In this document: piece after piece, positions 24,581 to 63,648 of the stretch
Numbering within the stretch: the stretch's first letter is position 1
Layout of the letters: each line of letters begins with the position of its first letter
Source: Eledone cirrhosa
Lineage: Eukaryota
Assembly (NCBI GenBank): GCA_964016885.1
Contig: CAXHJY010000575.1
Location: 1 to 64,000, forward strand
Length of the DNA stretch: 64,000 nucleotides
Reading direction: 5' to 3'
The notes under the pieces: model-generated
Seen by the model: only the letters and a program-made list of their open reading frames with translations
What the model was told of the DNA's origin: nothing
Databases searched by the model: none
Made by a program: the position numbers and the translations under genes

Positions 24581-24620
24581 AATATGGTTTTATAAATATA
24601 GTTTCCATTTATTTAATATC

Positions 24621-24680: not shown

Positions 24681-24807
24681 TATATATAATATATATATAT
24701 ATATATAATATATATATATATATAATATATATATATAATATATATATATAATATATATATATATAATATATATAGATATATATATATAATATATATATAT
24801 ATATATA

Positions 24808-27280
24808 GTAAAGCCAGAGTCCTGGTGTTTCTCCAGTGCAAGGCGCATACAATAGTCCACTACGATGATAAAAAGGTAGGGATCCAATGTATCTCCCTGG
24901 AGCACTCCAGCCAGTATCTCAAAGAACTCTGTCATCCCATCAGGTGTAATGACTTGGGCTTTGGTGTTGGTGTAGAGCAGTGATATCAGGTCCACTATCC
25001 TCTTGGGGATTCTATAAGCCTGTAAGATCTTCATCAGGCAGTAACGGTCCACAGAATCAAAGGCCTTCCTAAAGTCAATGAAAACCATGACCGCAGGAAG
25101 GCACTTTGCTCTAACTCCCTCTAATATCCTCCTCAGCATCAGGATGTGACTGGTGGTTGATCTACCCTCTCTGAAGCCGTTCTGGTTATCTCTGAGCTTC
25201 TTCTCCATCTCAGGCTGGATCCTGTTAAGAATCATCCTGTTACGTCAGTGAGATCACCCGGTAGTTGTTGGTGTTAGAGAGATCTCCCTTCTTTGGCACT
25301 GGGACGATGTTACTGATCCTCCACTGATTCGGGGCAACTCCTTTCTCCAGTGCCCCGTTACAGAACCCCAGGATGATATCATCAAAATCACACCTCTTCA
25401 TCACCTCTGATGCCACTCCATCTTCTCCATGAGCCTTGCCCTCCTTGATCTTCTTCTTGGCTCTCTGAAGCTCCTCTCTGGTGACGGGCTCTGTCTCAAC
25501 ATCCAGTTCCTCAAACAGCCGCCTGATCTCCCCAGTGCTCTGGGCTGTGGAGGGTGGCTCTCCTAGTAGGGTCCTAAAATGGTCTAGCCATTTCCTCTTC
25601 CTATCCTCGGGCCCCGTTCCCTGTATCTGACTCGAACACCTTTTCTTCCTCCCTGTGATCTCGTTGATGATCATCCAGCTCTCCTTACATCCAGATCTGT
25701 CAACCGCTCTCTCCACACTTCTGATCTTCTCTATCAGTGCCTCCTCTCTGACCTCAGTGTAAGCAGTACAGAGCTCTTCCCTCATCACCTCCACAGTCTC
25801 CATCCTCTCCTCCGTAGGATCAGCATAGAATTGGTCCCTGGCAGCTTTCAGGTGTTCTCTGGCTGCACACACTTTTGGGTTTGCAGAGCTGACGTGCTTC
25901 CCTTTGTTCTTTTTCCTCGGCACCAGGGTTTCACTTGCTTTCGCCACTGCATTGGTGAAGTGCCCGTACCTCCTCGTCACACTCTCCTCAGTCCATCCAA
26001 TCTCTCTCTCCTCTGACTCTCCACACAGAGCACTAAACCTGTTTCTCACTTCCACTGTGAACCTCTCCTGTAGCTTATCATCTTCCTTGAAAGCTCCCCA
26101 GTCATAGATTGTTCTCCGGGGCTGAGCCTTGCTCTTTCTTAAGCTCACGCGGACCTCACTCATAACAAGCCGGTGGTCACTACCCAGTGTACTGAAATAG
26201 CTGTATGGTTCCATGTTCAGAACACTATTCAGCCACTTTTTCCTCACCAGAATGAAATCAATCTGGGACTTGGACAGGTGCATATCTGAGATGTAGGTCC
26301 ACATCTTCCCCACATTCTTCCTAAACCTTAGGTTGGTCGCCATCAAGTTCGCCTCCAGCAGGGTGTCTCTCAGTAGTCTTCCATTTCGGTTGGTGTTGTT
26401 ATGGAAGTACCAGCAAGGATCTTCACTGCCCTCCTTACTCAGATGTGCATTGAAGTCCCCCAAAACAAGCAGGATATTGTGTGCCTGAGTGGTGTTGACA
26501 GCTCTACACACCTCCTCATGGAACTCCTCGGCATTCACATCACTGTCCCCCTCGGTTGGACTATAGGCTGAGATGACTGTCAGTCTTGGGTTTCCATTGA
26601 AGGTCACCCTCAACACTCGCGGGGAGATAGGCATTATTTCCCTCACCAACAGATTGGTTTTTGCACTGAACACAAAACCCACTCCTCCTACTGCAGCATT
26701 TGTTGTGTTCTTCACTGCCGATGTGGTGATGAGCTGGCTCTTCCTCCCGATCATCACACTCCTCACGGGCTCATCGTGTAGAATCCTGTGTTCTTGGATC
26801 GCAAGTATCTGTATACCACTCTCCTCGAACAGATGTCCCAACTCCTCTCTCTTCTCCAGCGTTCAAATAGTCCTCACATTCAAAGTGCCCATTTTGATGG
26901 CTCTTCTGCAGGACAAAACCGCATTCTTTATATTTGTCTCAGAGACAGCTGATCCATCATCCACTGGCCCTCTCTGTGGCTCTAAGCCAGCAGAGTCATA
27001 ACGACCAGGCTGCTCCTTGACAGTGTAATTAGGGGCTCTAACCCTAGTGCTGTTAGATCGACTCTCCATATTTCTTTTCAAAGGCTGACAATACCTTACC
27101 GGCGCTATTCGAATAAGGTAGTTATTTAACCCATAAATGGAGCCCTATCAGGTACTACCACCCCGGGCCAGGGCAGACCTGGGAGTCATGACAACTAAGG
27201 GGTAACTCCACATTCCCCACATCTCCTGAACTCCCGAACTGGAGCCTTGCCACTGGATGTAGTTTAATGTCATACCCAGG
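24808..27280 (-). mobile_element. RTE-clade LINE, 5' portion (5' UTR, APE endonuclease, N-terminal RT), inverted
   Basis: APE motifs MGTLNVRT, LAIQEHR, SAYSPT, LGDFNAH, QIDFIL, SDHRLV; RT motifs VPVPKKGDL..NYR.ISL, QNGFREGRST, FIDFRKAFDSV, GVLQGDTLDPYLF. In-frame TGA at 26863 and a frameshift near 25240. Confidence 0.93.
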
Positions 27281-28066
27281 GGCGAAAAAGGTATCGGATG
27301 CTGAATTTGCAGACAACATAGTTTTGGTGACAAATACAGTGAAGGAGGCAGAGGATTTGATGCGGGAGGTTGAGACTGTGTCGATGAGTGTGGGGCTGAG
27401 AATGAATGAGTCTAAAACAAAATATCTGGTAGAGAATGTTGAGAAGCCAGAGGGGATCACTAAAGTAGGCGGGAGGCCACTGGAATTGGTTGAGGACTTC
27501 CTGTATTTGGGAGCAAAGATTGGGAATACGGAAGATGATGTGGTTGAGAGGAAGAGCAAAAGCCTGGGCGGCGTGTCACAGCTTGAGATCGGTGTGGAAG
27601 TCGGACCTTCGTAGAGACCTGAAAATCGCCTCTTCATTGCTGTAGTGGAGTCTATACTGCTGTATGGGTCTGAGACTTGGACACTGACCAAGAGACTCAC
27701 TCAGATGGTGGATGGGTGCTACACGAGAATGCTGAGGATGGCTCTGAACATTAATCAGTATACACTGAGGATGAAAAACTCAGAGCTGTATGGGAGCATC
27801 CCAAAAGTCAGCTCAAAAGTGACACAGAGGAGACTGAGGTTGGCTGGACATGCTCACCGACATCCAGAGTATGACATTGCACTCAGTGCTCCTTTGGGAG
27901 CCCCTACATGGGACACACTAGAAGAGGAAGACCAAGGTTAACATATGTTGATGCCCTAAGGACAGACACTGGTCTGTTGGAGATGCAGGATATGGCAGCG
28001 ATAATGAGGGACAGAGACCGCTGGAGGGAACTCGTCCATGGATCTCGGGAATTTTACCCGCCTTAG
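27281..28066 (+). mobile_element. RTE-clade LINE, 3' portion of the same element
   Basis: AEFADNIVL (YADD site decayed), GLRMNESKTK, FLYLG, ESILLYGSETWTL, RRLRLAGH. Frameshifted. Ends in TAG followed by (AT)n. Confidence 0.92.
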
Positions 28067-28704
<638 letters not shown>

Positions 28705-29164
28705 ATGGAAAGTTATATTTAAATTGTTGGGTTACTACTAGTAAATATTTATAACTGATATAAAAGCACTCGACAAGTATTTGGAGTATATTTACAATAT
28801 TAAATAAATGGAAACTATATTATAAACCATATTTATTTCATTATATATATTTCAGGGATATCATATTAACAATATGCTATGCCTTCCTCAGACAAAATAC
28901 AATATAAACAGTTTTATAGATAAATAGATTCGATATACCGTAACAACATCGACTTGTATTTTGAAAAGGTTGATTTGGCAGATCAACCTTTTCAAATACA
29001 AGTCACGATGTTGTTACGGTATGTCGAATCTATTTATCTATAAAACTGGTTTATATTCTATTTTGTCTGAGGAAGGCATAGCATATTGTAATATGATATC
29101 CCTGAAATATATATAATGAAATAAATATGGTTTTATAAATATAGTTTCCATTTATTTAATATTG

Positions 29165-29165
<1 letters not shown>
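28705..29165. mobile_element. Short family C pLTR palindrome with two hammerheads
   Basis: Arms ~28793-28973 and ~28982-29165. HHR at 28834-28899 (-) and 29059-29123 (+). Tail 28705-28792 equals 21898-21985. Confidence 0.85.
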
Positions 29166-29202
<37 letters not shown>

Positions 29203-29640: not shown

Positions 29641-30248
29641 TCGTATGCATATATATATATTCATATGCATACTAGTATTTCAGTATACATATGTGGATGT
29701 ACATTTTTAACTTAATTGTTTAAGCGTCAGTCATACAAAAGTGAGTTACAAACGAAGCGAAATTTAATTTCGTTTCGTTATTTGTTTTTATCGTCTCCGT
29801 TGAACCGGTACGTACTCACGCTCTATGCAAATTAGTCTGCCCACTACTAATTTTCATAGAAAAAGCATATAACGATATGTGCTTTTACGATTCTCTAGAA
29901 AGGCCGGAAGATAGGTAAATATTGCTGATGAGTTGTAACAACAACGAAACTAGTTCAATATTCCTTGTCTGGCTTTCTGGAGAATAGAGGAAAGGTGTTT
30001 CCTCAAAAACCAGTATGACTCTAAAAACCGGTTTGTCTGTGTGTTTACATACAGAATAGCTGGACACTCACAGTAAAGTGACCAGTGAAAAACTCGGTAC
30101 ATCTACATATGTATACGTGTGTGTATTCATATGCATACTAGTATTTCAGTATACATATGTGGATGTACATTTTTAACTTAATTGTTTAAGCGTCAGTCAT
30201 ACAAAAGTGAGTTACAAACGAAACGAAATTTAATTTCGTTTCGTTATT

Positions 30249-30256
<8 letters not shown>
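29641..30256 (+). mobile_element. Solo ~1.3-unit copy of the 463-bp hammerhead repeat (retrozyme-like), flanked by (TA)n
   Basis: Homologous to the array unit at 40789-60017. About 130 bp of terminal redundancy (29660-29790 repeated at 30126-30256). Confidence 0.9.
29918..29962 (+). ncRNA. Minimal type I hammerhead ribozyme
   Basis: AATATTG-CTGATGA-GTTGT AACA ACAAC-GAAA-CTAG-TT-CAATATT, with a GUU cleavage triplet. Confidence 0.85.
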
Positions 30257-37340: not shown

Positions 37341-40505
<3,165 letters not shown>

Positions 40506-40526
40506 TATATAATATATATATATAAT

Positions 40527-40571
<45 letters not shown>

Positions 40572-40633
40572 TATATATAAATAATATATATATATATATA
40601 TATAATATATATATATATATAAATAATATATAT

Positions 40634-40680
<47 letters not shown>

Positions 40681-40749
40681 TATATATATAAATAATATAT
40701 ATATATATATATAATATATATAATATATATATATATAATATATATACAT

Positions 40750-40781
<32 letters not shown>

Positions 40782-40788
40782 ATATATA

Positions 40789-43700
40789 TAAAACTCGGTA
40801 CATCTACATATGTACACGTGTGTGTATTCATATGCATACTAATATTTCAGTATACATATGTGGATGTACATTTTTAACTTAATTGTTTAAGCGTCAGTCA
40901 TACAAAAGTGAGTTACAAACGAAGCGAAATTTAATTTCGTTTCGTTATTTGTTTTTATCGTCTCCGCTGAACCGGTACGTACTCACGCTCTATGCAAATT
41001 AGTCTGCCCACTACTAATTATCATAGAAAAAGCATATAACGATATGTGCTTTTACGATTCTCTAGAAAGGCCGGAATAGGTAAATATTGCTGATGAGATG
41101 TAACAACATCGAAACTAGTCCAATATTCCTGTCTAGCTTTCTGGAGAATAGAGGAAAGGTGTTTCCTCGAAAACCAGTATGACTATAAAAACCGGTTTGT
41201 CTGTGTGTTTACATACAGAATAGCTGAACACTCACAGTAAAGTGTCCAGTGAAAAACTCGGTACATCTACATATGTACACGTGTGTGTATTCATATGCAT
41301 ACTAATATTTCAGTATACATATGTGGATGTACATTTTAACTTAATTGTTTAAGCGTCAGTCATACAAAAGTGAGTTACAAACGAAGCGAAATTTAATTTC
41401 GTTTCGTTATTTGTTTTTATCGTCTCCGCTGAACCGGTACGTACTCACGCTCTATGCAAATTAGTCTGCCCACTACTAATTTTCATAGAAAAAGCATATA
41501 ACGATATGTGCTTTTACGATTCTCTAGAAAGGCCGGAATAGGTAAATATTGCTGATGAGATGTAATAACATCGAAACTAGTCCAATATTGCTGTCTAGCT
41601 TTCTGGAGAATAGAGGAAAGGTGTTTCCTCGAAAACCAGTATGACTCTAAAAACCGGTTTGTCTGTGTGTTTACATACAGAATAGCTGAACACTCACAGT
41701 AAAGTGTCCAGTGAAAAACTCGGTACATCTACATATGTACACGTGTGTGTATTCATATGCATACTAATATTTCAGTATACATATGTGGATGTACATTTTT
41801 AACTTAATTGTTTAAGCGTCAGTCATACAAAAGTGAGTTACAAACGAAGCGAAATTTAATTTCGTTTCGTTATTTGTTTTTATCGTCTCCGCTGAACCGG
41901 TACGTACTCACGCTCTATGCAAATTAGTCTGCCCACTACTAATTTTCATAGAAAAAGCATATAACGATATGTGCTTTTACGATTCTCTAGAAAGGCCGGA
42001 ATAGGTAAATATTGCTGATGAGATGTAACAACATCGAAACTAGTCCAATATTCCTGTCTAGCTTTCTGGAGAATAGAGGAAAGGTGTTTCCTCGAAAACC
42101 AGTATGACTCTAAAAACCGGTTTGTCTGTGTGTTTACATACAGAATAGCTGAACACTCACAGTAAAGTGTCCAGTGAAAAACTCGGTACATCTACATATG
42201 TACACGTGTGTGTATTCATATGCATACTAATATTTCAGTATACATATGTGGATGTACATTTTTAACTTAATTGTTTAAGCGTCTGTCATACAAAAGTGAG
42301 TTACAAACGAAACGAAATTTAATTTCGTTTCGTTATTTGTTTTTATCGTCTCCGCTGAACCGGTACGTACTCACGCTCTATGCAAATTAATCTGCCCACT
42401 ACTAATTTTAAATAGAAAAAGCATATAACGATATGTGCTTTTACGATTCTCTAGAAACGCCGGAATAGGTAAATATTGCTGATGAGATGTAACAACATCG
42501 AAACTAGTCCAATATTCCTGTCTAGCTTTCTGGAGAATAGAGGAAAGGTGTTTCCTCGAAAACTAGTATGACTCTAAAAACCGGTTTGTCTGTGTGTTTA
42601 CATACAGAATAGCTGAACACTCACAGTAAAGTGTCCAGTGAAAAACTCGGTACATCTACATATGTACACGTGTGTGTATTCATATGCATACTAATATTTC
42701 AGTATACATATGTGGATGTACATTTTTAACTTAATTGTTTAAGCGTCAGTCATACAAAAGTGAGTTACAAACGAAGCGAAATTTAATTTCGTTTCGTTAT
42801 TTGTTTTTATCGTCTCCGCTGAACCGGTACGTACTCACGCTCTATGCAAATTAGTCTGCCCACTACTAATTTTCATAGAAAAAGCATATAACGATATGTG
42901 CTTTTACGATTCTCTAGAAAGGCCGGAATAGGTAAATATTGCTGATGAGATGTAACAACATCGAAACTAGTCCAATATTCCTGTCTAGCTTTCTGGAGAA
43001 TAGAGGAAAGGTGTTTCCTCGAAAACCAGTATGACTCTAAAAACCGGTTTGTCTGTGTGTTTACATACAGAATAGCTGAACACTCACAGTAAAGTGTCCA
43101 GTGAAAAACTCGGTACATCTACATATGTACACGTGTGTGTATTCATATGCATACTAATATTTCAGTATACATATGTGGATGTACATTTTTAACTTAATTG
43201 TTTAAGCGTCAGTCATACAAAAGTGAGTTACAAACGAAGCGAAATTTAATTTCGTTTCGTTATTTGTTTTTATCGTCTCCGCTGAACCGGTACGTACTCA
43301 CGCTCTATGCAAATTAGTCTGCCCACTACTAATTTTCATAGAAAAAGCATATAACGATATGTGCTTTTACGATTCTCTAGAAAGGCCGGAATAGGTAAAT
43401 ATTGCAGATGAGATGTAATAACATCGAAACTAGTCCAATATTCCTGTCTAGCTTTCTGGAGAATAGAGGAAAGGTGTTTCCTCGAAAACCAGTATGACTC
43501 TAAAAACCGGTTTGTCTGTGTGTTTACATACAGAATAGCTGAACACTCACAGTAAAGTGTCCAGTGAAAAACTCGGTACATCTACATATGTACACGTGTG
43601 TGTATTCATATGCATACTAATATTTCAGTATACATATGTGGATGTACATTTTTAACTTAATTGTTTAAGCGTCTGTCATACAAAAGTGAGTTACAAACGA

Positions 43701-46700
43701 AGCGAAATTTAATTTCGTTTCGTTATTTGTTTTTATCGTCTCCGCTGAACCGGTACGTACTCACGCTCTATGCAAATTAGTCTGCCCACTACTAATTTTC
43801 ATAGAAAAAGCATATAACGATATGTGCTTTTACGATTCTCCAGAAAGGCCGGAATAGGTAAATATTGCTGATGAGATGTAACAACATCGAAACTAGTCCA
43901 ATATTCCTGTCTAGCTTTCTGGAGAATAGAGGAAAGGTGTTTCCTCGAAAACCAGTATGACTCTAAAAACCGGTTTGTCTGTGTGTTTACATACAGAATA
44001 GCTGAACACTCACAGTAAAGTGTCCAGTGAAAAACTCGGTACATCTACATATGTACACGTGTGTGTATTCATATGCATACTAATATTTCAGTATACATAT
44101 GTGGATGTACATTTTTAACTTAATTGTTTAAGCGTCAGTCATACAAAAGTGAGTTACAAACGAAGCGAAATTTAATTTCGTTTCGTTATTTGTTTTTATC
44201 GTCTCCGCTGAACCGGTACGTACTCACGCTCTATGCAAATTAGTCTGCCCACTACTAATTTTCATAGAAAAAGCATATAACGATATGTGCTTTTACGATT
44301 CTCTAGAAAGGCCGGAATAGGTAAATATTGCTGATGAGATGTAACATCGAAACTAGTCCAATATTCCTGTCTAGCTTTCTGGAGAATAGAGGAAAGGTGT
44401 TTCCTCGAAAACCAGTATGACTCTAAAAACCGGTTTGTCTGTGTGTTTACATACAGAATAGCTGAACACTCACAGTAAAGTGTCCAGTGAAAAACTCGGT
44501 ACATCTACATATGTACACGTGTGTGTATTCATATGCATACTAATATTTCAGTATACATATGTGGATGTACATTTTTAACTTAATTGTTTAAGCGTCAGTC
44601 ATACAAAAGTGAGTTACAAACGAAGCGAAATTTAATTTCGTTTCGTTATTTGTTTTTATCGTCTCCGCTGAACCGGTACGTACTCACGCTCTATGCAAAT
44701 TAGTCTGCCCACTACTAATTTTCATAGAAAAAGCATATAACGATATGTGCTTTTACGATTCTCTAGAAAGGCCGGAATAGGTAAATATTGCTGATGAGAT
44801 GTAATAACATCGAAACTAGTCCAATATTCCTGTCTAGCTTTCTGGAGAATAGAGGAAAGGTGTTTCCTCGAAAACCAGTATGACTCTAAAAACCGGTTTG
44901 TCTGTGTGTTTACATACAGAATAGCTGAACACTCACAGTAAAGTGTCCAGTGAAAAACTCGGTACATCTACATATGTACACGTGTGTGTATTCATATGCA
45001 TACTAATATTTCAGTATACATATGTGGATGTACATTTTTAACTTAATTGTTTAAGCGTCAGTCATACAAAAGTGAGTTACAAACGAAGCGAAATTTAATT
45101 TCGTTTCGTTATTTGTTTTTATCGTCTCCGCTGAACCGGTACGTACTCACGCTCTATGCAAATTAGTCTGCCCACTACTAATTTTCATAGAAAAAGCATA
45201 TAACGATATGTGCTTTTACGATTCTCTAGAAAGGCCGGAATAGGTAAATATTGCAGATGAGATGTAATAACATCGAAACTAGTCCAATATTCCTGTCTAG
45301 CTTTCTGGAGAATAGAGGAAAGGTGTTTCCTCGAAAACCAGTATGACTCTAAAAACCGGTTTGTCTGTGTGTTTACATACAGAATAGCTGAACACTCACA
45401 GTAAAGTGTCCAGTGAAAAACTCGGTACATCTACATATGTACACGTGTGTGTATTCATATGCATACTAATATTTCAGTATACATATGTGGATGTACATTT
45501 TTAACTTAATTGTTTAAGCGTCAGTCATACAAAAGTGAGTTACAAACGAAGCGAAATTTAATTTCGTTTCGTTATTTGTTTTTATCGTCTCCGCTGAACC
45601 GGTACGTACTCACGCTCTATGCAAATTAGTCTGCCCACTACTAATTTTCATAGAAAAAGCATATAACGATATGTGCTTTTACGATTCTCTAGAAAGGCCG
45701 GAATAGGTAAATATTGCTGATGAGATGTAACAACATCGAAACTAGTCCAATATTCCTGTCTAGCTTTCTGGAGAATAGAGGAAAGGTGTTTCCTCGAAAA
45801 CCAGTATGACTCTAAAAACCGGTTTGTCTGTGTGTTTACATACAGAATAGCTGAACACTCACAGTAAAGTGTCCAGTGAAAAACTCGGTACATCTACATA
45901 TGTACACGTGTGTGTATTCATATGCATACTAATATTTCAGTATACATATGTGGATGTACATTTTTAACTTAATTGTTTAAGCGTCAGTCATACAAAAGTG
46001 AGTTACAAACGAAGCGAAATTTAATTTCGTTTCGTTATTTGTTTTTATCGTCTCCGCTGAACCGGTACGTACTCACGCTCTATGCAAATTAGTCTGCCCA
46101 CTACTAATTTTCATAGAAAAAGCATATAACGATATGTGCTTTTACGATTCTCTAGAAAGGCCGGAATAGGTAAATATTGCTGATGAGATGTAATAACATC
46201 GAAACTAGTCCAATATTCCTGTCTAGCTTTCTGGAGAATAGAGGAAAGGTGTTTCCTCGAAAACCAGTATGACTCTAAAAACCGGTTTGTCTGTGTGTTT
46301 ACATACAGAATAGCTGAACACTCACAGTAAAGTGTCCAGTGAAAAACTCGGTACATCTACATATGTACACGTGTGTGTATTCATATGCATACTAATATTT
46401 CAGTATACATATGTGGATGTACATTTTTAACTTAATTGTTTAAGCGTCTGTTATACAAAAGTGAGTTACAAACGAAGCGAAATTTAATTTCGTTTCGTTA
46501 TTTGTTTTTATCGTCTCCGCTGACCCGGTACGTACTCACGCTCTATGCAAATTAGTCTGCCCACTACTAATTTTCATAGAAAAAGCATATAACGATATGT
46601 GCTTTTACGATTCTCCAGAAAGGCCGGAATAGGTAAATATTGCTGATGAGATGTAACAACATCGAAACTAGTCCAATATTCCTGTCTAGCTTTCTGGAGA

Positions 46701-49700
46701 ATAGAGGAAAGGTGTTTCCTCGAAAACCAGTATGACTCTAAAAACCGGTTTGTCTGTGTGTTTACATACAGAATAGCTGAACACTCACAGTAAAGTGTCC
46801 AGTGAAAAACTCGGTACATCTACATATGTACACGTGTGTGTATTCATATGCATACTAATATTTCAGTATACTTATGTGGATGTACATTTTTAACTTAATT
46901 GTTTAAGCGTCAGTCATACAAAAGTGAGTTACAAACGAAGCGAAATTTAATTTCGTTTCGTTATTTGTTTTTATCGTCTCCGCTGAACCGGTACGTACTC
47001 ACGCTCTATGCAAATTAGTCTGCCAACTACTCATTTTCATAGAAAAAGCATATAACGATATGTGCTTTTACTATTCTCCAGAAAGGCCGGAATAGGTAAA
47101 TATTGCTGATGAGATGTAACAACATCGAAACTAGTCCAATATTCCTGTCTAGCTTTCTGGAGAATAGAGGAAAGGTGTTTCCTCGAAAACCAGTATGACT
47201 CTAAAAACCGGTTTGTCTGTGTGTTTACATACAGAATAGCTGAACACTCACAGTAAAGTGTCCAGTGAAAAACTCGGTACATCTACATATGTACACGTGT
47301 GTGTATTCATATGCATACTAATATTTCAGTATACATATGTGGATGTACATTTTTAACTTAATTGTTTAAGCGTCAGTCATACAAAAGTGAGTTACAAACG
47401 AAGCGAAATTTAATTTCGTTTCGTTATTTGTTTTTATCGTCTCCGCTGAACCGGTACGTACTCACGCTCTATGCAAATTAGTCTGCCCACTACTAATTTT
47501 CATAGAAAAAGCATATAACGATATGTGCTTTTACGATTCTCTAGAAAGGCCGGAATAGGTAAATATTGCTGATGAGATGTAACAACATCGAAACTAGTCC
47601 AATATTCCTGTCTAGCTTTCTGGAGAATAGAGGAAAGGTGTTTCCTCGAAAACCAGTATGACTCTAAAAACCGGTTTGTCTGTGTGTTTACATACAGAAT
47701 AGCTGAACACTCACAGTAAAGTGTCCAGTGAAAAACTCGGTACATCTACATATGTACACGTGTGTGTATTCATATGCATACTAATATTTCAGTATACATA
47801 TGTGGATGTACATTTTTAACTTAATTGTTTAAGCGTCAGTCATACAAAAGTGAGTTACAAACGAAGCGAAATTTAATTTCGTTTCGTTATTTGTTTTTAT
47901 CGTCTCCGCTGAACCGGTACGTACTCACGCTCTATGCAAATTAGTCTCCCACTACTAATTTTCATAGAAAAAGCATATAACGATATGTGCTTTTACGATT
48001 CTCTAGAAAGGCCGGAATAGGTAAATATTGCTGATGAGATGTAATAACATCGAAACTAGTCCAATATTCCTGTCTAGCTTTCTGGAGAATAGAGGAAAGG
48101 TGTTTCCTCGAAAACCAGTATGACTCTAAAAACCGGTTTGTCTGTGTGTTTACATACAGAATAGCTGAACACTCACAGTAAAGTGTCCAGTGAAAAACTC
48201 GGTACATCTACATATGTACACGTGTGTGTATTCATATGCATACTAATATTTCAGTATACATATGTGGATGTACATTTTTAACTTAATTGTTTAAGCGTCT
48301 GTTATACAAAAGTGAGTTACAAACGAAGCGAAATTTAATTTCGTTTCGTTATTTGTTTTTATCGTCTCCGCTGACCCGGTACGTACTCACGCTCTATGCA
48401 AATTAGTCTGCCCACTACTAATTTTCATAGAAAAAGCATATAACGATACGTGCTTTTACGATTCTCCAGAAAGGCCGGAATAGGTAAATATTGCTGATGA
48501 GATGTAACAACATCGAAACTAGTCCAATATTCCTGTCTAGCTTTCTGGAGAATAGAGGAAAGGTGTTTCCTCGAAAACCAGTATGACTCTAAAAACCGGT
48601 TTGTCTGTGTGTTTACATACAGAATAGCTGAACACTCACAGTAAAGTGTCCAGTGAAAAACTCGGTACATCTACATATGTACACGTGTGTGTATTCATAT
48701 GCATACTAATATTTCAGTATACATATGTGGATGTACATTTTTAACTTAATTGTTTAAGCGTCAGTCATACAAAAGTGAGTTACAAACGAAGCGAAATTTA
48801 ATTTCGTTTCGTTATTTGTTTTTATCGTCTCCGCTGAACCGGTACGTACTCACGCTCTATGCAAATTAGTCTGCCCACTACTAATTTTCATAGAAAAAGC
48901 ATATAACGATATGTGCTTTTACGATTCTCTAGAAAGGCCGGAATAGGTAAATATTGCTGATGAGATGTAACAACATCGAAACTAGTCCAATATTCCTGTC
49001 TAGCTTTCTGGAGAATAGAGGAAAGGTGTTTCCTCGAAAACCAGTATGACTCTAAAAACCGGTTTGTCTGTGTGTTTACATACAGAATAGCTGAACACTC
49101 ACAGTAAAGTGTCCAGTGAAAAACTCGGTACATCTACATATGTACACGTGTGTGTATTCATATGCATACTAATATTTCAGTATACATATGTGGATGTACA
49201 TTTTTAACTTAATTGTTTAAGCGTCAGTCATACAAAAGTGAGTTACAAACGAAGCGAAATTTAATTTCGTTTCGTTATTTGTTTTTATCGTCTCCGCTGA
49301 ACCGGTACGTACTCACGCTCTATGCAAATTAGTCTCCCACTACTAATTTTCATAGAAAAAGCATATAACGATATGTGCTTTTACGATTCTCTAGAAAGGC
49401 CGGAATAGGTAAATATTGCTGATGAGATGTAATAACATCGAAACTAGTCCAATATTCCTGTCTAGCTTTCTGGAGAATAGAGGAAAGGTGTTTCCTCGAA
49501 AACCAGTATGACTCTAAAAACCGGTTTGTCTGTGTGTTTACATACAGAATAGCTGAACACTCACAGTAAAGTGTCCAGTGAAAAACTCGGTACATCTACA
49601 TATGTACACGTGTGTGTATTCATATGCATACTAATATTTCAGTATACATATGTGGATGTACATTTTTAACTTAATTGTTTAAGCGTCTGTTATACAAAAG

Positions 49701-52700
49701 TGAGTTACAAACGAAGCGAAATTTAATTTCGTTTCGTTATTTGTTTTTATCGTCTCCGCTGACCCGGTACGTACTCACGCTCTATGCAAATTAGTCTGCC
49801 CACTACTAATTTTCATAGAAAAAGCTTATAACGATACGTGCTTTTACGATTCTCCAGAAAGGCCGGAATAGGTAAATATTGCTGATGAGATGTAACAACA
49901 TCGAAACTAGTCCAATATTCCTGTCTAGCTTTCTGGAGAATAGAGGAAAGGTGTTTCCTCGAAAACCAGTATGACTCTAAAAACCGGTTTGTCTGTGTGT
50001 TTACATACAGAATAGCTGAACACTCACAGTAAAGTGTCCAGTGAAAAACTCGGTACATCTACATATGTACACGTGTGTGTATTCATATGCATACTAATAT
50101 TTCAGTATACATATGTGGATGTACATTTTTAACTTAATTGTTTAAGCGTCAGTCATACAAAAGTGAGTTACAAACGAAGCGAAATTTAATTTCGTTTCGT
50201 TATTTGTTTTTATCGTCTCCGCTGAACCGGTACGTACTCACGCTCTATGCAAATTAGTCTGCCCACTACTAATTTTCATAGAAAAAGCATATAACGATAT
50301 GTGCTTTTACGATTCTCTAGAAAGGCCGGAATAGGTAAATATTGCTGATGAGATGTAATAACATCGAAACTAGTCCAATATTCCTGTCTAGCTTTCTGGA
50401 GAATAGAGGAAAGGTGTTTCCTCGAAAACCAGTATGACTCTAAAAACCGGTTTGTCTGTGTGTTTACATACAGAATAGCTGAACACTCACAGTAAAGTGT
50501 CCAGTGAAAAACTCGGTACATCTACATATGTACACGTGTGTGTATTCATATGCATACTAATATTTCAGTATACATATGTGGATGTACATTTTTAACTTAA
50601 TTGTTTAAGCGTCTGTTATACAAAAGTGAGTTACAAACGAAGCGAAATTTAATTTCGTTTCGTTATTTGTTTTTATCGTCTCCGCTGACCCGGTACGTAC
50701 TCACGCTCTATGCAAATTAGTCTGCCCACTACTAATTTTCATAGAAAAAGCATATAACGATATGTGCTTTTACGATTCTCCAGAAAGGCCGGAATAGGTA
50801 AATATTGCTGATGAGATGTAACAACATCGAAACTAGTCCAATATTCCTGTCTAGCTTTCTGGAGAATAGAGGAAAAGTGTTTCCTCGAAAACCAGTATGA
50901 CTCTAAAAACCGGTTTGTCTGTGTGTTTACATACAGAATAGCTGAACACTCACAGTAAAGTGTCCAGTGAAAAACTCGGTACATCTACATATGTACACGT
51001 GTGTGTATTCATATGCATACTAATATTTCAGTATACATATGTGGATGTACATTTTTAACTTAATTGTTTAAGCGTCTGTCATACAAAAGTGAGTTACAAA
51101 CGAAGCGAAATTTAATTTCGTTTCGTTATTTGTTTTTATCGTCTCCGCTGAACCGGTACGTACTCACGTTCTATGCAAATTAGTCTGCCCACTACTAATT
51201 TTCATAGAAAAAGCATATAACGATATGTGCTTTTACGATTCTCCAGAAAGGCCGGAATAGGTAAATATTGCTGATGAGATGTAACAACATCGAAACTAGT
51301 CCAATATTCCTGTCTAGCTTTCTGGAGAATAGAGGAAAGGTGTTTCCTCGAAAACCAGTATGACTCTAAAAACCGGTTTGTCTGTGTGTTTACATACAGA
51401 ATAGCTGAACACTCACAGTAAAGTGTCCAGTGAAAAACTCGGTACATCTACATATGTACACGTGTATGTATTCATATGCATACTAATATTTCAGTATACA
51501 TATGTGGATGTACATTTTTAACTTAATTGTTTAAGCGTCAGTCATACAAAAGTGAGTTACAAACGAAGCGAAATTTAATTTCGTTTCGTTATTTGTTTTT
51601 ATTGTCTCCGCTGAACCGGTACGTACTCACGCTCTATGCAAATTAGTCTGCCCACTACTAATTTTCATAGAAAAAGCATATAACGATATGTGCTTTTACG
51701 ATTCTCTAGAAAGGCCGGAATAGGTAAATATTGCTGATGAGATGTAACAACATCGAAACTAGTCCAATATTCCTGTCTAGCTTTCTGGAGAATAGAGGAA
51801 AGGTGTTTCCTCGAAAACCAGTATGACTCTAAAAACCGGTTTGTCTGTGTGTTTACATACAGAATAGCTGAACACTCACAGTAAAGTGTCCAGTGAAAAA
51901 CTCGGTACATCTACATATGTACACGTGTGTGTATTCATATGCATACTAATATTTCAGTATACTTATGTGGATGTACATTTTTAACTTAATTGTTTAAGCG
52001 TCAGTCATACAAAAGTGAGTTACAAACGAAGCGAAATTTAATTTCGTTTCGTTATTTGTTTTTATCGTCTCCGCTGAACCGGTACGTACTCACGCTCTAT
52101 GCAAATTAGTCTGCCAACTACTCATTTTCATAGGCCGGAATAGGTAAATATTGCTGATGAGATGTAACAACATCGAAACTAGTCCAATATTCCTGTCTAG
52201 CTTTCTGGAGAATAGAGGAAAGGTGTTTCCTCGAAAACCAGTATGACTCTAAAAACCGGTTTGTCTGTGTGTTTACATACAGAATAGCTGAACACTCACA
52301 GTAAAGTGTCCAGTGAAAAACTCGGTACATCTACATATGTACACGTGTGTGTATTCATATGCATACTAATATTTCAGTATACATATGTGGATGTACATTT
52401 TTAACTTAATTGTTTAAGCGTCAGTCATACAAAAGTGAGTTACAAACGAAGCGAAATTTAATTTCGTTTCGTTATTTGTTTTTATCGTCTCCGCTGAACC
52501 GGTACGTACTCACGCTCTATGCAAATTAGTCTGCCCACTACTAATTTTCATAGAAAAAGCATATAACGATATGTGCTTTTACGATTCTCTAGAAAGGCCG
52601 GAATAGGTAAATATTGCTGATGAGATGTAACAACATCGAAACTAGTCCAATATTCCTGTCTAGCTTTCTGGAGAATAGAGGAAAGGTGTTTCCTCGAAAA

Positions 52701-55700
52701 CCAGTATGACTCTAAAAACCGGTTTGTCTGTGTGTTTACATACAGAATAGCTGAACACTCACAGTAAAGTGTCCAGTGAAAAACTCGGTACATCTACATA
52801 TGTACACGTGTGTGTATTCATATGCATACTAATATTTCAGTATACATATGTGGATGTACATTTTTAACTTAATTGTTTAAGCGTCAGTCATACAAAAGTG
52901 AGTTACAAACGAAGCGAAATTTAATTTCGTTTCGTTATTTGTTTTTATCGTCTCCGCTGAACCGGTACGTACTCACGCTCTATGCAAATTAGTCTGCCCA
53001 CTACTAATTTTCATAGAAAAAGCATATAACGATATGTGCTTTTACGATTCTCTAGAAAGGCCGGAATAGGTAAATATTGCTGATGAGATGTAACAACATC
53101 GAAACTAGTCCAATATTCCTGTCTAGCTTTCTGGAGAATAGAGGAAAGGTGTTTCCTCGAAAACCAGTATGACTCTAAAAACCGGTTTGTCTGTGTGTTT
53201 ACATACAGAATAGCTGAACACTCACAGTAAAGTGTCCAGTGAAAAACTCGGTACATCTACATATGTACACGTGTGTGTATTCATATGCATACTAATATTT
53301 CAGTATACATATGTGGATGTACATTTTTAACTTAATTGTTTAAGCGTCAGTCATACAAAAGTGAGTTACAAACGAAGCGAAATTTAATTTCGTTTCGTTA
53401 TTTGTTTTTATCGTCTCCGCTGAACCGGTACGTACTCACGCTCTATGCAAATTAGTCTGCCCACTACTAATTTTCATAGAAAAAGCATATAACGATATGT
53501 GCTTTTACGATTCTCTAGAAAGGCCGGAATAGGTAAATATTGCTGATGAGATGTAACAACATCGAAACTAGTCCAATATTCCTGTCTAGCTTTCTGGAGA
53601 ATAGAGGAAAGGTGTTTCCTCGAAAACCAGTATGACTCTAAAAACCGGTTTGTCTGTTTGTTTACATACAGAATAGCTGAACACTCACAGTAAAGTGTCC
53701 AGTGAAAAACTCGGTACATCTACATATGTACACGTGTGTGTATTCATATGCATACTAATATTTCAGTATACATATGTGGATGTACATTTTTAACTTAATT
53801 GTTTAAACATCAGTCATACAAAAGTGAGTTACAAACGAAGCGAAATTTAATTTCGTTTCGTTATTTGTTTTTATCGTCTACGCTGAACCGGTACGTACTC
53901 ACGCTCTATGCAAATTAGTCTGCCCACTACTAATTTTCATAGAAAAAGCATATAACGATATGTGCTTTTACGATTCTCTAGAAAGGCCGGAATAGGTAAA
54001 TATTGCTGATGAGATGTAACAACATCGAAACTAGTCCAATATTCCTGTCTAGCTTTCTGGATAATAGAGGAAAGGTGTTTCCTCGAAAACTAGTATGACT
54101 CTAAAAACCGATTTGTCTGTGTGTTTACATACAGAATAGCTGAACACTCACAGTAAAGTGTCCAGTGAAAAACTCGGTACATCTACATATGTACACGTGT
54201 GTGTATTCATATGCATACTAATATTTCAGTATACATATGTGGATGTACATTTTTAACTTAATTGTTTAAGCGTCAGTCATACAAAAGTGAGTTACAAACG
54301 AAGCAAAATTTAATTTCGTTTCGTTATTTGTTTTTATCGTCTCCGCTGAACCGGTACGTACTCACGCTCTATGCAAATTAGTCTGCCCACTACTAATTTT
54401 CATAGAAAAAGCATATAACGATATGTGCTTTTACGATTCTCTAGAAAGGCCGGAATAGGTAAATATTGCTGATGAGATGTAACAACATCGAAGCTAGTCC
54501 AATATTCCTGTCTAGCTTTCTGGAGAATAGAGGAAAGGTGTTTCCTCGAAAACCAGTATGACTCTAAAAACCGGTTTGTCTGTGTGTTTACATACAGAAT
54601 AGCTGAACACTCACAGTAAAGTGTCCAGTGAAAAACTCGGTACATCTACATATGTACACATGTGTGTATTCATATGCATACTAATATTTCAGTATACATA
54701 TGTGGATGTACATTTTTAACTTAATTGTTTAAGCGTCAGTCATACAAAAGTGAGTTACAAACGAAGCGAAATTTAATTTCGTTTCGTTATTTGTTTTTAT
54801 CGTCTCCGCTGAACCGGTACGTACTCACGCTCTATGCAAATTAGTCTGCCCACTACTAATTTTCATAGAAAAAGCATATAACGTTATGTGCTTTTACGAT
54901 TCTCTAGAAAGGCCGGAATAGGTAAATATTGCTGATGAGATGTAACAACATCGAAACTAGTCCAATATTCCTGTCTAGCTTTCTGGAGAATAGAGGAAAG
55001 GTGTTTCCTCGAAAATCAGTATGACTCTAAAAACCGGTTTGTCTGTGTGTTTACATACAGAATAGCTGAACACTCACAGTAAAGTGTCCAGTGAAAAACT
55101 CGGTACATCTACATATGTACACGTGTGTGTATTCATATGCATACTAATATTTCAGTATACATATGTGGATGTACATTTTTAACTTAATTGTTTAAGCGTC
55201 TGTCATACAAAAGTGAGTTACAAACGAAGCGAAATTTAATTTCGTTTCGTTATTTGTTTTTATCGTCTCCGCTTAACCGGTACGTACTCACGCTCTATGC
55301 AAATTAGTCTGCCCACTACTAATTTTCATAGAAAAAGCATATAACGATATGTGCTTTTACGATTCTCTAGAAAGGCCGGAATAGGTAAATATTGCTGATG
55401 AGATGTAACAACATCGAAACTAGTCCAATATTCCTGTCTAGCTTTCTGGAGAATAGAGGAAAGGTGTTTCCTCGAAAACGAGTATGACTCTAAAAACCGG
55501 TTTGTCTGTGTGTTTACATACAGAATAGCTGAACACTCACAGTAAAGTGTCCAGTGAAAAACTCGGTACATCTACATATGTACACGTGTGTGTATTCATA
55601 TGCATACTAATATTTCAGTATACATATGTGGATGTACATTTTTAACTTAATTGTTTAAGCGTCAGTCATACAAAAGTGAGTTACAAACGAAGCGAAATTT

Positions 55701-58700
55701 AATTTCGTTTCGTTATTTGTTTTTATCGTCTCCGCTGAACCGGTACGTACTCACGCTCTATGCAAATTAGTCTGCCCACTACTAATTTTCATAGAAAAAG
55801 CATATAACGATATGTGCTTTTACGATTCTCTAGAAAGGCCGGAATAGGTAAATATTGCTGATGAGATGTAACAACATCGAAACTAGTCCAATATTCCTGT
55901 CTAGCTTTCTGGAGAATAGAGGAAAGGTGTTTCCTCGAAAACCAGTATGACTCTAAAAACCGGTTTGTCTGTGTGTTTACATACAGAATAGCTGAACACT
56001 CACAGTAAAGTTCCAGTGAAAAACTCGGTACATCTACATATGTACACGTGTGTGTATTCATATGCATACTAATATTTCAGTATACATATGTGGATGTACA
56101 TTTTTAACTTAATTGTTTAAGCGTCTGTCATACAAAAGTGAGTTACAAACGAAGCGAAATTTAATTTCGTTTCGTTATTTGTTTTTATCGTCTCCGCTGA
56201 ACCGATACGTACTCACGCTCTATGCAAATTAGTCTGCCCACTACTAATTTTCATAGAAAAAGCATATAACGATATGTACTTTTACGATTCTCTAGAAAGG
56301 CCGGAATAGGTAAATATTGCTGATGAGATGTAACAACATCGAAACTAGTCCCAATATTCCTGTCTAGCTTTCTGGAGAATAGAGGAAAGGTGTTTCCTCG
56401 AAAACCAGTATGACTCTAAAAACCGGTTTGTCTGTTTGTTTACATACAGAATAGCTGAACACTCACAGTAAAGTGTCCAGTGAAAAACTCGGTACATCTA
56501 CATATGTACACGTGTGTGTATTCATATGCATACTAATATTTCAGTATACATATGTGGATGTACATTTTTAACTTAATTGTTTAAGCGTCAGTCATACAAA
56601 AGTGAGTTACAAACGAAGCGAAATTTAATTTCGTTTCGTTATTTGTTTTTATCGTCTCCGCTTAACCGGTACGTACTCACGCTCTATGCAAATTAGTCTG
56701 CCCACTACTAATTTTCATAGAAAAAGCATATAACGATATGTGCTTTTACGATTCTCTAGAAAGGCCGGAATAGGTAAATATTGCTGATGAGATGTAACAA
56801 CATCGAAACTAGTCCAATATTCCTGTCTAGCTTTCTGGAGAATAGAGGAAAGGTGTTTCCTCGAAAACGAGTATGACTCTAAAAACCGGTTTGTCTGTGT
56901 GTTTACATACAGAATAGCTGAACACTCACAGTAAAGTGTCCAGTGAAAAACTCGGTACATCTACATATGTACACGTGTGTGTATTCATATGCATACTAAT
57001 ATTTCAGTATACATATGTGGATGTACATTTTTAACTTAATTGTTTAAGCGTCAGTCATACAAAAGTGAGTTACAAACGAAGCGAAATTTAATTTCGTTTC
57101 GTTATTTGTTTTCATCGTCTCCGCTGAACCGCTACGTACTCACGCTCTATGCAAATTAGTCTGCCCACTACTAATTTTCATAGAAAAAGCATATAACGAT
57201 ATGTGCTTTTACGATTCTCTAGAAAGGCCGGAATAGGTAAATATTGCTGATGAGATGTAACAACATCGAAACTAGTCCAATATTCCTGTCTAGCTTTCTG
57301 GAGAATAGAGGAAAGGTGTTTCCTCGAAAACCAGTATGACTCTAAAAACCGGTTTGTCTGTGTGTTTACATACAGAATAGCTGAACACTCACAGTAAAGT
57401 GTCCAGTGAAAAACTCGGTACATCTACATATGTACACGTGTGTGTATTCATATGCATACTAATATTTCAGTATACATATGTGGATGTACATTTTTAACTT
57501 AATTGTTTAAGCGTCAGTCATACAAAAGTGAGTTACAAACGAAGCGAAATTTATTTTCGTTTCGTTATTTGTTTTCATCATCTCCGCTGAACCGGTACGT
57601 ACTCACGCTCTATGCAAATTAGTCTGCCCACTACTAATTTTCATAGAAAAAGCATATAACGATATGTGCTTTTACGATTCTCTAGAAAGGCCGGAATAGG
57701 TAAATATTGCTGATGAGATGTAACAACATCGAAACTAGTCCAATATTCCTGTCTAGCTTTCTGGAGAATAGAGGAAAGGTGTTTCCTCGAAAACCAGTAT
57801 GACTCTAAAAACCGGTTTGTCTGTGTGTTTACATACAGAATAGCTGAACACTCACAGTAAAGTGTCCAGTGAAAAACTCGGTACATCTACATATGTACAC
57901 GTGTGTGTATTCATATGCATACTAATATTTCAGTATACATATGTGGATGTACATTTTTAACTTAATTGTTTAAGCGTCAGTCATACAAAAGTGAGTTACA
58001 AACGAAGCGAAATTTATTTTCGTTTCGTTATTTGTTTTCATCATCTCCGCTGAACCGGTACGTACTCACGCTCTATGCAAATTAGTCTGCCCACTACTAA
58101 TTTTCATAGAAAAAGCATATAACGATATGTGCTTTTACGATTCTCTAGAAAGGCCGAAATAGGTAAATATTGCTGATGAGATGTAACAACATCGAAACTA
58201 GTCCAATATTCCTGTCTAGCTTTCTGGAGAATAGAGGAAAGGTGTTTCCTCGAAAACCAGTATGACTTTAAAAACCGGTTTGTCTGTGTGTTTACATACA
58301 GAATAGCTGAACACTCACGGTAAAGTGTCCAGTGAAAAACTCGGTACATCTACATATGTACACGTGTGTGTATTCATATGCATACTAATATTTCAGTATA
58401 CATATGTGGATGTACATTTTTAACTTAATTGTTTAAGCGTCAGTCATACAAATGTGAGTTACAAACGAAGCAAAATTTAATTTCGTTTCGTTATTTGTTT
58501 TTATCGTCTACGCTGAACCGGTACGTACTCACGCTCTATGCAAATTAATCTGCCCACTACTAATTTTCATAGAAAAAGCATATAACGATATGTGCTTTTA
58601 CGATTCTCTAGAAAGGCCGGAATAGGTAAATATTGCTGATGAGATGTAACAACATCGAAACTAGTCCAATATTCCTGTCTAGCTTTCTTGAGAATAGAGG

Positions 58701-60017
58701 AAAGGTGTTTCCTCGAAAACCAGTATGACTCTAAAAACCGGTTTGTCTGTGTGTTTACATACAGAATAGCTGAACACTCAGAGTAAAGTGTCCAGTGAAA
58801 AACTTGGTACATCTACATATGTACACGTGTGTGTATTCATATGCATACTAATATTTCAGTATACATATGTGGATGTACATTTTTAACTTAATTGTTTAAG
58901 CGTCTGTCCTACAAAAGTGAGTTACAAACGAAGCGAAATTTAATTTCGTTTCGTTATTTGTTTTTATCGTCTCCGCTGAACCGGTACGTACACACGCTCT
59001 ATGCAAATTAATCTGCCCACTACTAATTTTCATAGAAAAAGCATATAACGATATGTGCTTTTACGATTCTCTAGAAAGGCCGGAATAGGTAAATATTGCT
59101 GATGAGATGTAACAACATCGAAACTAGTCCAATATTCCTGTCTAGCTTTCTGGAGAATAGAGGAAAGGTGTTTCCTCGAAAACCAGTATGACTCTAAAAA
59201 CCGGTTTGTCTGTGTGTTTACATACAGAATAGCTGAACACTCACAGTAAAGTGTCCAGTGAAAAACTCGGTACATCTACATATGTACACGTGTGTGTATT
59301 CATATGCATACTAATATTTCAGTATACATATGTGGATGTACATTTTTAACTTAATTGTTTAAGCGTCAGTCATACAAAAGTGAGTTACAAACGAAGCGAA
59401 ATTTAATTTCGTTTCGTTATTTGTTTTCATCGTCTCCGCTGAACCGGTACGTACTCACGCTCTATGCAAATTAGTCTGCCCACTACTAATTTTCATAGAA
59501 AAAGCATATAACGATATGTGCTTTTACGATTCTCTAGAAAGGCCGGAATAGGTAAATATTGCTGATGAGATGTAACAACATCGAAACTAGTCCAATATTC
59601 CTGTCTAGCTTTCTGGAGAATAGAGGAAAGGTGTTTCCTCGAAAACCAGTATGACTCTAAAAACCGGTTTGTCTGTGTGTTTACATACAGAATAGCTGAA
59701 CACTCACAGTAAAGTGTCCAGTGAAAAACTCGGTACATCTACATATGTACACGTGTGTGTATTCATATGCATACTAATATTTCAGTATACATATGTGGAT
59801 GTACATTTTTAACTTAATTGTTTAAGCGTCAGTCATACAAAAGTGAGTTACAAACGAAGCGAAAGTGTCCAGTGAAAAACTCGGTACATCTACATATGTA
59901 CACGTGTGTGTATTCATATGCATACTAATATTTCAGTATACATATGTGGATGTACATTTTTAACTTAATTGTTTAAGCGTCAGTCATACAAAAGTGAGTT
60001 ACAAACGTTATTTGTTT
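40789..60017 (+). repeat. Tandem array of ~41.5 x 463-bp units, each with a minimal type I hammerhead ribozyme (retrozyme-like satellite)
   Basis: The 463-bp period is read from repeated landmarks and ORF-track spacing. I count 41 HHR-bearing units, which differ by only a few SNPs or indels. (TA)n on both sides. Confidence 0.97.
41083..41127 (+). ncRNA. Minimal type I hammerhead ribozyme, first of 41 array copies
   Basis: AATATTG-CTGATGA-GATGT AACA ACATC-GAAA-CTAG-TC-CAATATT; GUC cleavage after 41120. Stem I extends through TTCTCTAGAAAG/CTTTCTGGAGAA. Confidence 0.92.
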
Positions 60018-61620
<1,603 letters not shown>

Positions 61621-63593: not shown

Positions 63594-63648
63594 ACTGTCT
63601 GAAGAGGTCACAGCCAAAGATGGCTGTCACTGAAATATATATAGCAGT
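63594..63648 (+). ncRNA. Type I hammerhead ribozyme upstream of a PLE ORF
   Basis: ACTGT-CTGAAGA-GGTCACAGCCA AAGA TGGCTGTCACT-GAAA-TATATA-TA-GCAGT; cleavage after AUA at 63643. Confidence 0.78.

What the first reader, a model, noticed from the sequence alone, without database searches (positions are those of the whole stretch)
40789..60017. 19-kb satellite built from 41 hammerhead-ribozyme units: a retrozyme-like element expanded into satellite DNA
Seen: every 463-bp unit contains stem I AATATTG/CAATATT, core CTGATGA, stem II GATGT/ACATC, GAAA, a tiny stem III and a GUC site, inside a longer helix (TTCTCTAGAAAG/CTTTCTGGAGAA). The unit has no credible ORF. Known: type I HHRs in tandem repeats occur in newt satellite 2, schistosome Sm-alpha, cave-cricket pDo500 and animal non-LTR retrozymes, where multimeric transcripts self-cleave to monomers that can circularise. 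Inference: + strand transcription would yield 463-nt linear or circular RNAs, mobilised by the PLE RT/GIY-YIG machinery that surrounds the array. The array is long and homogeneous. I cannot verify whether this family is already described.
Basis: partly seen in the sequence, partly recalled or inferred. Interest (0 to 1): 0.92.

Follow-up and report, generated by a model that had tools for sequence, protein, structure and literature searches.

The report
Hammerhead retrozyme with Penelope-type insertions
The 19-kb array is an unusually long copy of a non-coding jumping repeat (a retrozyme, a known kind) whose units each carry a self-cutting RNA motif; its copies elsewhere in the genome bear the insertion marks of Penelope-like retrotransposons, which points to how such repeats are copied.

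Summary
In detail: 41 units of about 463 bp (40790-60017), each with a type I hammerhead; 36 of 41 match the consensus exactly. It is not a stand-alone satellite. It is one long copy of a young, dispersed family (9,129 motif matches in the 3.0-Gb assembly), and a sister family is 67% identical over the whole unit with compensatory changes in the ribozyme stems. This is a new member of the known animal non-LTR retrozymes; arrays of 62-300 units are in print. The added result is the insertion anatomy. Of 47 insertions, 32 are two head-to-head arms. In 29 of these one arm ends at site A and the other at site B, about 70 nt apart; none is A+A or B+B; 69 of 79 ends run into (TA)n. This is the tail-plus-inversion signature of Penelope-like elements (PLEs) and fits two-site internal priming. 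Long arms show later block duplications, so part of the 41 units probably arose in place. Not shown: cleavage, transcription, a circle, and which PLE is the partner; the neighbouring PLEs share no DNA with the unit.

The parts
40790..60017 (+). Single-armed retrozyme array: 41 hammerhead-bearing units of about 463 bp, 5' end joined to (TA)n, 3' end of type A
41058..41148 (+). Type I hammerhead of unit 1 with outer helix; GGUA bulge in stem I, 5-bp stem II, helix III reduced to one A-U pair with a palindromic loop; predicted cut after C41120
40884..40890 (+). Site B in unit 1 (unit positions about 94-100): one of the two recurrent 3' ends of the family, just downstream of a long hairpin
40952..40958 (+). 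Site A in unit 1 (unit positions about 163-169): the other recurrent 3' end, at the foot of a 13-bp hairpin
59865..60017 (+). Rearranged 3' end: a jump back that repeats 151 bp, then a skip over the A hairpin to the usual A-type last bases (template switches inferred)
51897..52317 (+). The one 420-bp unit (43-bp deletion that removes the 5' strand of the outer helix)
40381..40789 (.). (TA)n target, left flank
60018..61619 (.). (TA)n target, right flank
29658..30256 (+). Independent 1.3-unit insertion of another subfamily of the same family, in (TA)n, 3' end of type A, with a compensatory pair change in stem II

Best explanation
A non-autonomous, non-LTR retrozyme that is copied by a Penelope-like element. 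Steps: (1) tandem copies are transcribed on the + strand (inferred; promoter unknown). (2) The hammerheads cut after the GUC, probably as dimers because helix III is one pair with a palindromic loop, releasing 463-nt monomers that a host ligase may close (inferred from newt/axolotl retrozymes). (3) A PLE RT/GIY-YIG protein nicks (TA)n DNA on both strands and starts reverse transcription inside the RNA, at site A for one strand and site B for the other (anatomy shown; enzyme inferred). (4) Each cDNA runs through the ribozyme cut site for one or more units and stops at a variable place; the two 5' ends join head to head (shown as anatomy; circle versus uncut multimer as template is undecided). 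(5) Some arms then grow by DNA-level block duplication (best reading of the variant patterns). The window array is a single A-ended arm that reached 41 units.
For: Dispersed on many chromosomes at 97-99% identity; 9,129 motif matches, control 0. 47 distinct insertions typed: 32 head-to-head, of which 29 A+B, 0 A+A or B+B, 3 with one atypical end; 15 single-armed (8 A, 7 B); 69 of 79 ends enter TA. Sister family, first found by similarity outside the ribozyme, is 67% identical over 426 aligned columns with the same order of hairpins; 14 of the 14 cleanly two-ended loci among 60 are A+B. Ribozyme helices covary: 13 of 19 pairs change on both sides, slid controls 1-8. Units differ by 0.77% within and 1.47% between insertions, and 7 of 30 head-to-head insertions carry a rare variant in all covering pieces of both arms. 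Two young PLE families in this genome also show two 3' ends into TA. PMC8557442 describes an inverted 5'-truncated copy, a tail at one end only and (TA)n bias for PLEs; PMC11167929 shows both-strand cleavage and two internal RT start sites that bound the tail.
Against: No autonomous partner was found: no DNA similarity to 60 neighbouring-family PLE loci; PLE frames do lie near some of 92 loci searched, most of the sister family, but as different families and orientations with no recurrent join (read by eye). The tail here is about 70 nt against the 30-40 published. No cleavage or expression data; in the 2026 preprint 8 of 9 predicted Xenopus retrozyme dimers did not cleave in vitro, and in PMC11167929 hammerhead mutants did not affect insertion in vitro. 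The motif is below Rfam's gathering score. The 47 insertions are not a random sample: 38 came from best full-length matches. The alignment for one search has 15 related rows, most picked by a core pattern, so core invariance there is partly by construction.
Confidence: 0.8

Rival explanations
1. Same PLE-driven insertion, but the template is an uncut linear multimer from an existing array; the ribozyme and any circle play no part in copying.
For: Hammerhead mutants insert normally in vitro and unprocessed RNA is the main substrate for the anole PLE (PMC11167929). In L033 a locus-private variant lies in some units of both arms, and in L034 and L054 a variant is shared in register between arms but not fixed, as a mixed multimer would give.
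Against: The catalytic core is kept and the stems covary across families 33% apart, so the ribozyme fold is under selection. Several insertions have near-identical units (L051: 7 units, mean difference 0.29). In-register arm mismatch (0.73%) is barely below out-of-register (0.90%). This rival concerns step 4 only and is compatible with the rest of the best explanation.
Confidence: 0.4
2. The unit is the detached terminal repeat (pLTR) of an autonomous PLE still in the genome; the arrays are its truncated partial tandems, not an independent retrozyme.
For: PLE ends carry hammerheads and form tandems; 24 of 57 Xenopus retrozyme families match known elements, nearly all PLEs (10.64898/2026.07.22.740005). 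Only 47 of some thousands of insertions were inspected.
Against: In the 47 insertions the 5' side is the opposite arm, TA or unrelated DNA, with no shared upstream sequence seen. Patterns for the same ribozyme type with other stem II bases gave only 29 and 158 matches, point variants and scattered old copies among those listed. The unit predicts a closed, highly paired circle like published retrozymes.
Confidence: 0.12
3. A satellite spread by DNA-level means (unequal exchange, extrachromosomal DNA circles), with a relic ribozyme.
For: The window array has regional shared variants (24 shared types; left and right halves differ), and long arms elsewhere show 4-, 5- and 6-unit block repeats confined to one arm.
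Against: It cannot explain two fixed 3' ends, variable 5' ends, the A+B pairing or TA targeting. It explains growth of arrays after insertion only.
Confidence: 0.04
4. The length of the window array is an assembly artefact.
For: The window is on a 108,789-base unplaced contig; raw long reads were not available.
Against: 30 of 40 monomers differ, with position-dependent variants; a 31-unit arm lies on a chromosome-scale contig.
Confidence: 0.07

Closest known systems
Metazoan non-LTR retrozymes (Cervera and de la Pena 2020, PMC7229834): coral 220-245 bp, mussel 350-390 bp, axolotl/newt satellite 330-350 bp
   Same: Non-coding tandem units with one type I hammerhead each, GC under 50%, strongly self-paired, thousands of copies, arrays up to 62-mers. 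Helix III of one pair with a palindromic tetraloop is as described for axolotl HHR_Amex1 and newt, which cleave well only as dimers.
   Different: Unit is longer (463-469 bp; sister 420-540 bp). No sequence relative is known to me; the scan's own index has none, Dfam/Repbase could not be searched. Head-to-head A+B insertions in (TA)n are not mentioned in the main text (0 hits for inverted, tail, microsatellite, head-to-head). Cleavage and circles are shown there, not here.
Animal retrozymes as non-autonomous PLE derivatives (Li, Clavereau and Pollet 2026, bioRxiv 10.64898/2026.07.22.740005)
   Same: Same class; units 51-972 bp, up to 180 and 300 units per array; PLE origin and mobilisation proposed.
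   Different: Their evidence is co-occurrence and pLTR similarity, mainly in vertebrates. Here pLTR similarity was not found, and the evidence is insertion anatomy (0 hits for tail or head-to-head in their main text; supplements not seen).
EN+ Penelope-like elements: insertion structure (Craig et al. 2021, PMC8557442) and anole PAc biochemistry (Frangieh et al. 2024, PMC11167929)
   Same: Partial tandems, 5' truncation, inverted copy at the 5' end, tail at one end, (TA)n or AT-rich targets, two internal RT start sites.
   Different: No ORF; arms are many copies of one short unit; tail about 70 nt. It inserts like a PLE but is not a PLE. Non-autonomous PLEs with multicopy head-to-tail insertions are known in Chlamys, which mostly lack hammerheads.

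Membership tests
Non-LTR retrozyme | Short tandem units, each with a type I hammerhead | tested here: met
   41 units; 36 exact, 37 pass the descriptor; 0 of 3000 shuffles; covariation
Non-LTR retrozyme | Non-coding | tested here: met
   Longest ATG frame 30 codons, longest stop-free frame 93 codons on the minus strand
Non-LTR retrozyme | No LTR, PBS or PPT | not tested
   No LTR arrangement seen in 47 insertions; PBS and PPT were not searched
Non-LTR retrozyme | GC under 50% and a stable self-paired monomer with the ribozyme free to fold | tested here: met
   GC 0.36; circle z -8.3; stems I and II form in the MFE, open core costs 1.5 kcal/mol
Non-LTR retrozyme | Dispersed, high copy, mobile | tested here: met
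   9,129 motif matches; many chromosomes; subfamilies
Non-LTR retrozyme | Self-cleavage of transcripts | not testable with these tools
   Needs in vitro transcription
Non-LTR retrozyme | Expressed as linear and circular monomer RNA | not testable with these tools
   Only assembled contigs of runs of unrecorded kind were available
Non-LTR retrozyme | Co-occurs with active PLEs | tested here: met
   RT + GIY-YIG frame at 17268-20495; 150 of 150 scored copies of its C-terminal 182 aa are 99-100% identical
Non-LTR retrozyme (PLE-derived, Li et al.) | Sequence similarity to the pLTR of a PLE | tested here: inconclusive
   None to two neighbouring families; other PLE families of the genome were not catalogued
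Penelope-like element | RT and GIY-YIG reading frame | tested here: not met
   Unit is non-coding; so not an autonomous PLE
Penelope-like element | Inverted 5'-truncated copy next to the 5' end | tested here: met
   32 of 47 insertions; the window array itself is single-armed
Penelope-like element | Tail at one end only (two 3' termini) | tested here: met
   29 A+B of 32, no A+A or B+B; sister family 14 of 14; length about 70 nt, not 30-40
Penelope-like element | Bias for (TA)n targets | tested here: met
   69 of 79 3' ends
Satellite DNA | Long arrays at few loci shaped by local exchange | tested here: inconclusive
   Local shared variants in long arrays, but the family is mainly short dispersed insertions

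The most novel reading that the evidence does not exclude
Each head-to-head insertion is the fossil of one event in which a PLE protein dimer primed both target strands at two fixed internal sites of one ribozyme-made RNA circle and copied it round and round. This would be direct genomic evidence for the proposed but unshown step of the retrozyme cycle, and would hand over a defined 463-nt substrate with known start sites for testing PLE rolling-circle reverse transcription.
Probability: 0.35. Interest if true: 0.72.

Novelty: new member of a known kind. Interest (0 to 1): 0.42.

Why it matters
That PLEs move animal retrozymes has been argued from co-occurrence and from likeness to PLE ends. 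Here the insertions themselves carry the PLE signature, with a strict pairing of the two ends in two families a third apart in sequence. That names two RNA sites where reverse transcription should start and makes the circle-versus-multimer question testable with one small RNA. The array as such, its length and its ribozyme are ordinary for the class.

Tried and rejected
Rfam at gathering score: nothing. RNA evidence: no RNA holder listed. Laying contigs of four coded runs gave head-to-tail joints in three, but tandem DNA collapses to the same circular contig, so this says nothing on circular RNA or expression. Partner search: neighbouring PLE families share no DNA with the unit; tblastn of four window or contig proteins on 92 loci showed no recurrent join; two solo ribozymes of an older type have no PLE frame within 5 kb; patterns with other stem II bases showed no further large family among the matches listed (29 of 29 and 100 of 158). 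A 10-base match between the A end and the end of another element at 14621 was noted and left as a lead. Single-pass rolling-circle origin of all 41 units: rejected, because variants are shared in blocks, as in 23 units of the 31-unit arm (11 shared types, 7 private). In-register test of the two arms: not decisive. An unbiased census of 20 further regions on contig C1 was not done, so the end counts rest on the sample described. Literature: six searches; none showed this family or an A+B rule for retrozymes; the terms octopus and cephalopod were my guess at the host from genome size and microsatellite content, the host was not established. Earlier scan notes: none by sequence or in this genome.

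Full report
Observation. The array is as described. TRF finds period 463 at 98-99% matches from 40790 to 59864 between two (TA)n runs, and BLAST of the first unit gives 41 units and two partial pieces, plus a separate 1.3-unit copy at 29658-30256. The 40 cleavage-to-cleavage monomers are 463 bp in 32 cases and 420-464 in the rest; 30 are distinct. Each unit has a type I hammerhead with a predicted cut after C41120 in unit 1. 36 of 41 match the consensus exactly; 37 pass a structural descriptor that 0 of 3000 shuffles pass. Rfam gives nothing at gathering score and Hammerhead_HH9 at 31 bits, E 1.4e-5, below its cut-off of 52. The unit has no ATG frame over 30 codons and folds at z -9.55, or -8.3 as a circle, with stems I and II formed in the minimum-energy structure. 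Helix III is one A-U pair with a palindromic loop; forcing it in a monomer costs about 7 kcal/mol, whereas two palindromes pair at -4.8. PMC7229834 reports this build for the newt and axolotl ribozymes, which cleave well as dimers, so dimer cleavage is my inference.

The family. The unit is dispersed through the 3.0-Gb assembly at 97-99% identity (39 of 690 candidates scored). A 34-letter pattern for its ribozyme has 9,129 matches, control 0, about 4.2 Mb or 0.14% of the assembly if each is a whole unit. The same listing shows an arm of 31 units on contig C1, so the window array is long but not alone. Subfamilies of 463, 465 and 466 bp exist. A sister family turned up by similarity outside the ribozyme. 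It aligns over the whole unit at 67% (287 of 426 columns) with the same order of hairpins, and keeps the core, the GGUA bulge and the palindromic loop while stems I and II change. A pattern that excludes family 1 has 13,211 matches, control 0; the 100 listed are all of the sister type. On 15 ribozyme rows, 13 of 19 pairs change on both sides, against 1-8 when partners are slid; the rows are related and mostly pattern-picked, so this is support, not a probability. A consensus fold of 12 dereplicated monomers has two-sided changes in 24 of 96 pairs.

Insertion anatomy. 32 consist of two arms joined head to head at variable 5' ends. 3' ends fall at two sites, A (unit position about 163-169) and B (about 94-100; the class used was 84-114): 38 A, 38 B, 3 other. 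Of the 32, 29 are A+B and none is A+A or B+B; three have one atypical end, one of which reaches the A bases through a jump. Independent choice at even odds would give 29 mixed pairs about twice in a billion. The 15 single arms are 8 A and 7 B; at least two of them may be halves of one interrupted insertion. 69 of 79 ends enter TA. In the sister family a cruder pattern typed 60 loci: 14 A+B, 0 A+A or B+B, 25 single, 1 complex, 20 untyped. The window array is a single arm ending at A after a 151-bp jump back and a skip over the A hairpin.

What this points to. PMC8557442 (passages read) describes PLE insertions as 5'-truncated partial tandems, often with an inverted copy at the 5' end, a 30-40-bp tail at one end only, and a bias for (TA)n. 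PMC11167929 (parts 1-2 of 4 read) shows that a PLE protein cuts and extends both target strands, is predicted to be a dimer, and starts reverse transcription at two internal RNA sites that bound the tail. The family matches this point by point, with a tail of about 70 nt. Two young PLE families here show the same two-ended pattern: the RT + GIY-YIG frame at 17268-20495 (Neptune-like by its linker motif, my reading) and the one at 38369-39298 (Hydra-like, recalled label), with tails of roughly 45 and 90 nt.

Circle or multimer. Sites A and B lie inside the monomer, so any arm longer than about 300 nt must have been copied across the ribozyme cut site: from a circle or from an uncut multimer. 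Units differ by 0.77% within and 1.47% between insertions, and 7 of 30 head-to-head insertions have a rare variant in all covering pieces of both arms, which shows that both arms come from one RNA sequence but not its form. Against a pure monomer circle, three insertions share an unfixed variant between arms. PMC11167929 found the ribozyme dispensable for insertion in vitro. Conservation of the ribozyme across the two families argues that cutting matters somewhere in the cycle. The question is open.

Growth in place. The window array has 24 shared variant types in regional blocks. Long arms elsewhere repeat blocks of 4, 5 or 6 units, mostly in one arm only, and 23 units of the 31-unit arm show 11 shared types. 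So long arrays are best read as insertions enlarged by local duplication. This is the true part of the word satellite.

Comparison and novelty. Tandem type I hammerhead units that yield circles are the non-LTR retrozymes (PMC7229834; parts 2-4 of 6 read, supplement not opened), with arrays up to 62-mers and PLEs named as likely drivers. The preprint 10.64898/2026.07.22.740005 (parts 1-3 of 5 read; supplements not seen and they may list related families) reports units of 51-972 bp, arrays of 180 and 300 units and a PLE origin; 8 of its 9 tested dimers did not cleave. So this is a new member of a known kind. Term searches in both main texts found no tail or head-to-head, and six library searches (other papers seen as listings only) showed neither this family nor the A+B rule for retrozymes; subscription journals, Dfam and Repbase were out of reach. 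Two unchecked notes of this scan report PLE-type insertions for ribozyme-free tandem units in other genomes, which suggests the anatomy is general for PLE passengers.

Verdict. Real, well-formed, ordinary in kind; interest 0.42, carried by the insertion signature and the test it offers. Shown: anatomy, dispersal, covariation, end pairing. Inferred: transcription, cleavage, circularisation, the PLE enzyme. Unknown: the partner family and the promoter.

Noticed in passing
window 28700-29170 and 23606-24620 (ribozyme cores at 24523 +, 28891 -, 29067 +): A second, unrelated hammerhead-bearing element; at 28700-29170 two short arms lie head to head in (TA)n, one with a longer 3' tail: the same insertion build in another family.
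   Followed up: partly
window 17268-20495 +: Open 1076-codon frame with PLE RT and C-terminal GIY-YIG; very young family (150 of 150 scored copies 99-100% identical over 182 aa, 23,871 candidates). My descriptor found no canonical hammerhead downstream of it in 30 copies.
   Followed up: partly
window 38369-40390 +: 5'-truncated PLE of another clade; most of 30 copies have a hammerhead-like motif near the 3' end with CAGAAGA in place of CUGANGA, further changed in the window copy. An inverted partial copy lies at 14958-15683.
   Followed up: partly
window 14430-14575 +: Hammerhead-like motif with a stem II insertion of about 110 nt and a palindromic loop III, about 50 nt before the element's 3' end; that end shares its last 10 bases with site A. 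Read by eye; a lead for the partner search.
   Followed up: no
window 34656 - and 63599 +: Two more hammerhead types, each recurring in other loci; the one at 63599 precedes a PLE frame that continues past the window.
   Followed up: partly
window 24800-27611: Broken non-LTR retrotransposon with APE endonuclease and RT on the minus strand, cut off by (TA)n.
   Followed up: no
L128-L217 (for example L135:1492-1923): Sister retrozyme family, units 420-540 bp whose length varies by a TA microsatellite inside the long hairpin; at least 13,211 motif matches, more than family 1.
   Followed up: yes
L218:5005-5040 and L219: Solo, older ribozymes of the same type with a longer stem II and no tandem copy within 5 kb; more such motifs are scattered in the genome.
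   Followed up: partly
L002 against window units 36-38 and 41: An insertion on contig C4 has the window array's haplotype, including one variant otherwise seen only in those units: the array may be a source locus. One base only, next to a T run.
   Followed up: partly
runs X4 and X6: Runs labelled as two other organisms each hold one 495-496-letter contig that closes on itself and is 95-99% identical to the unit; relative, carry-over or transfer could not be told.
   Followed up: no
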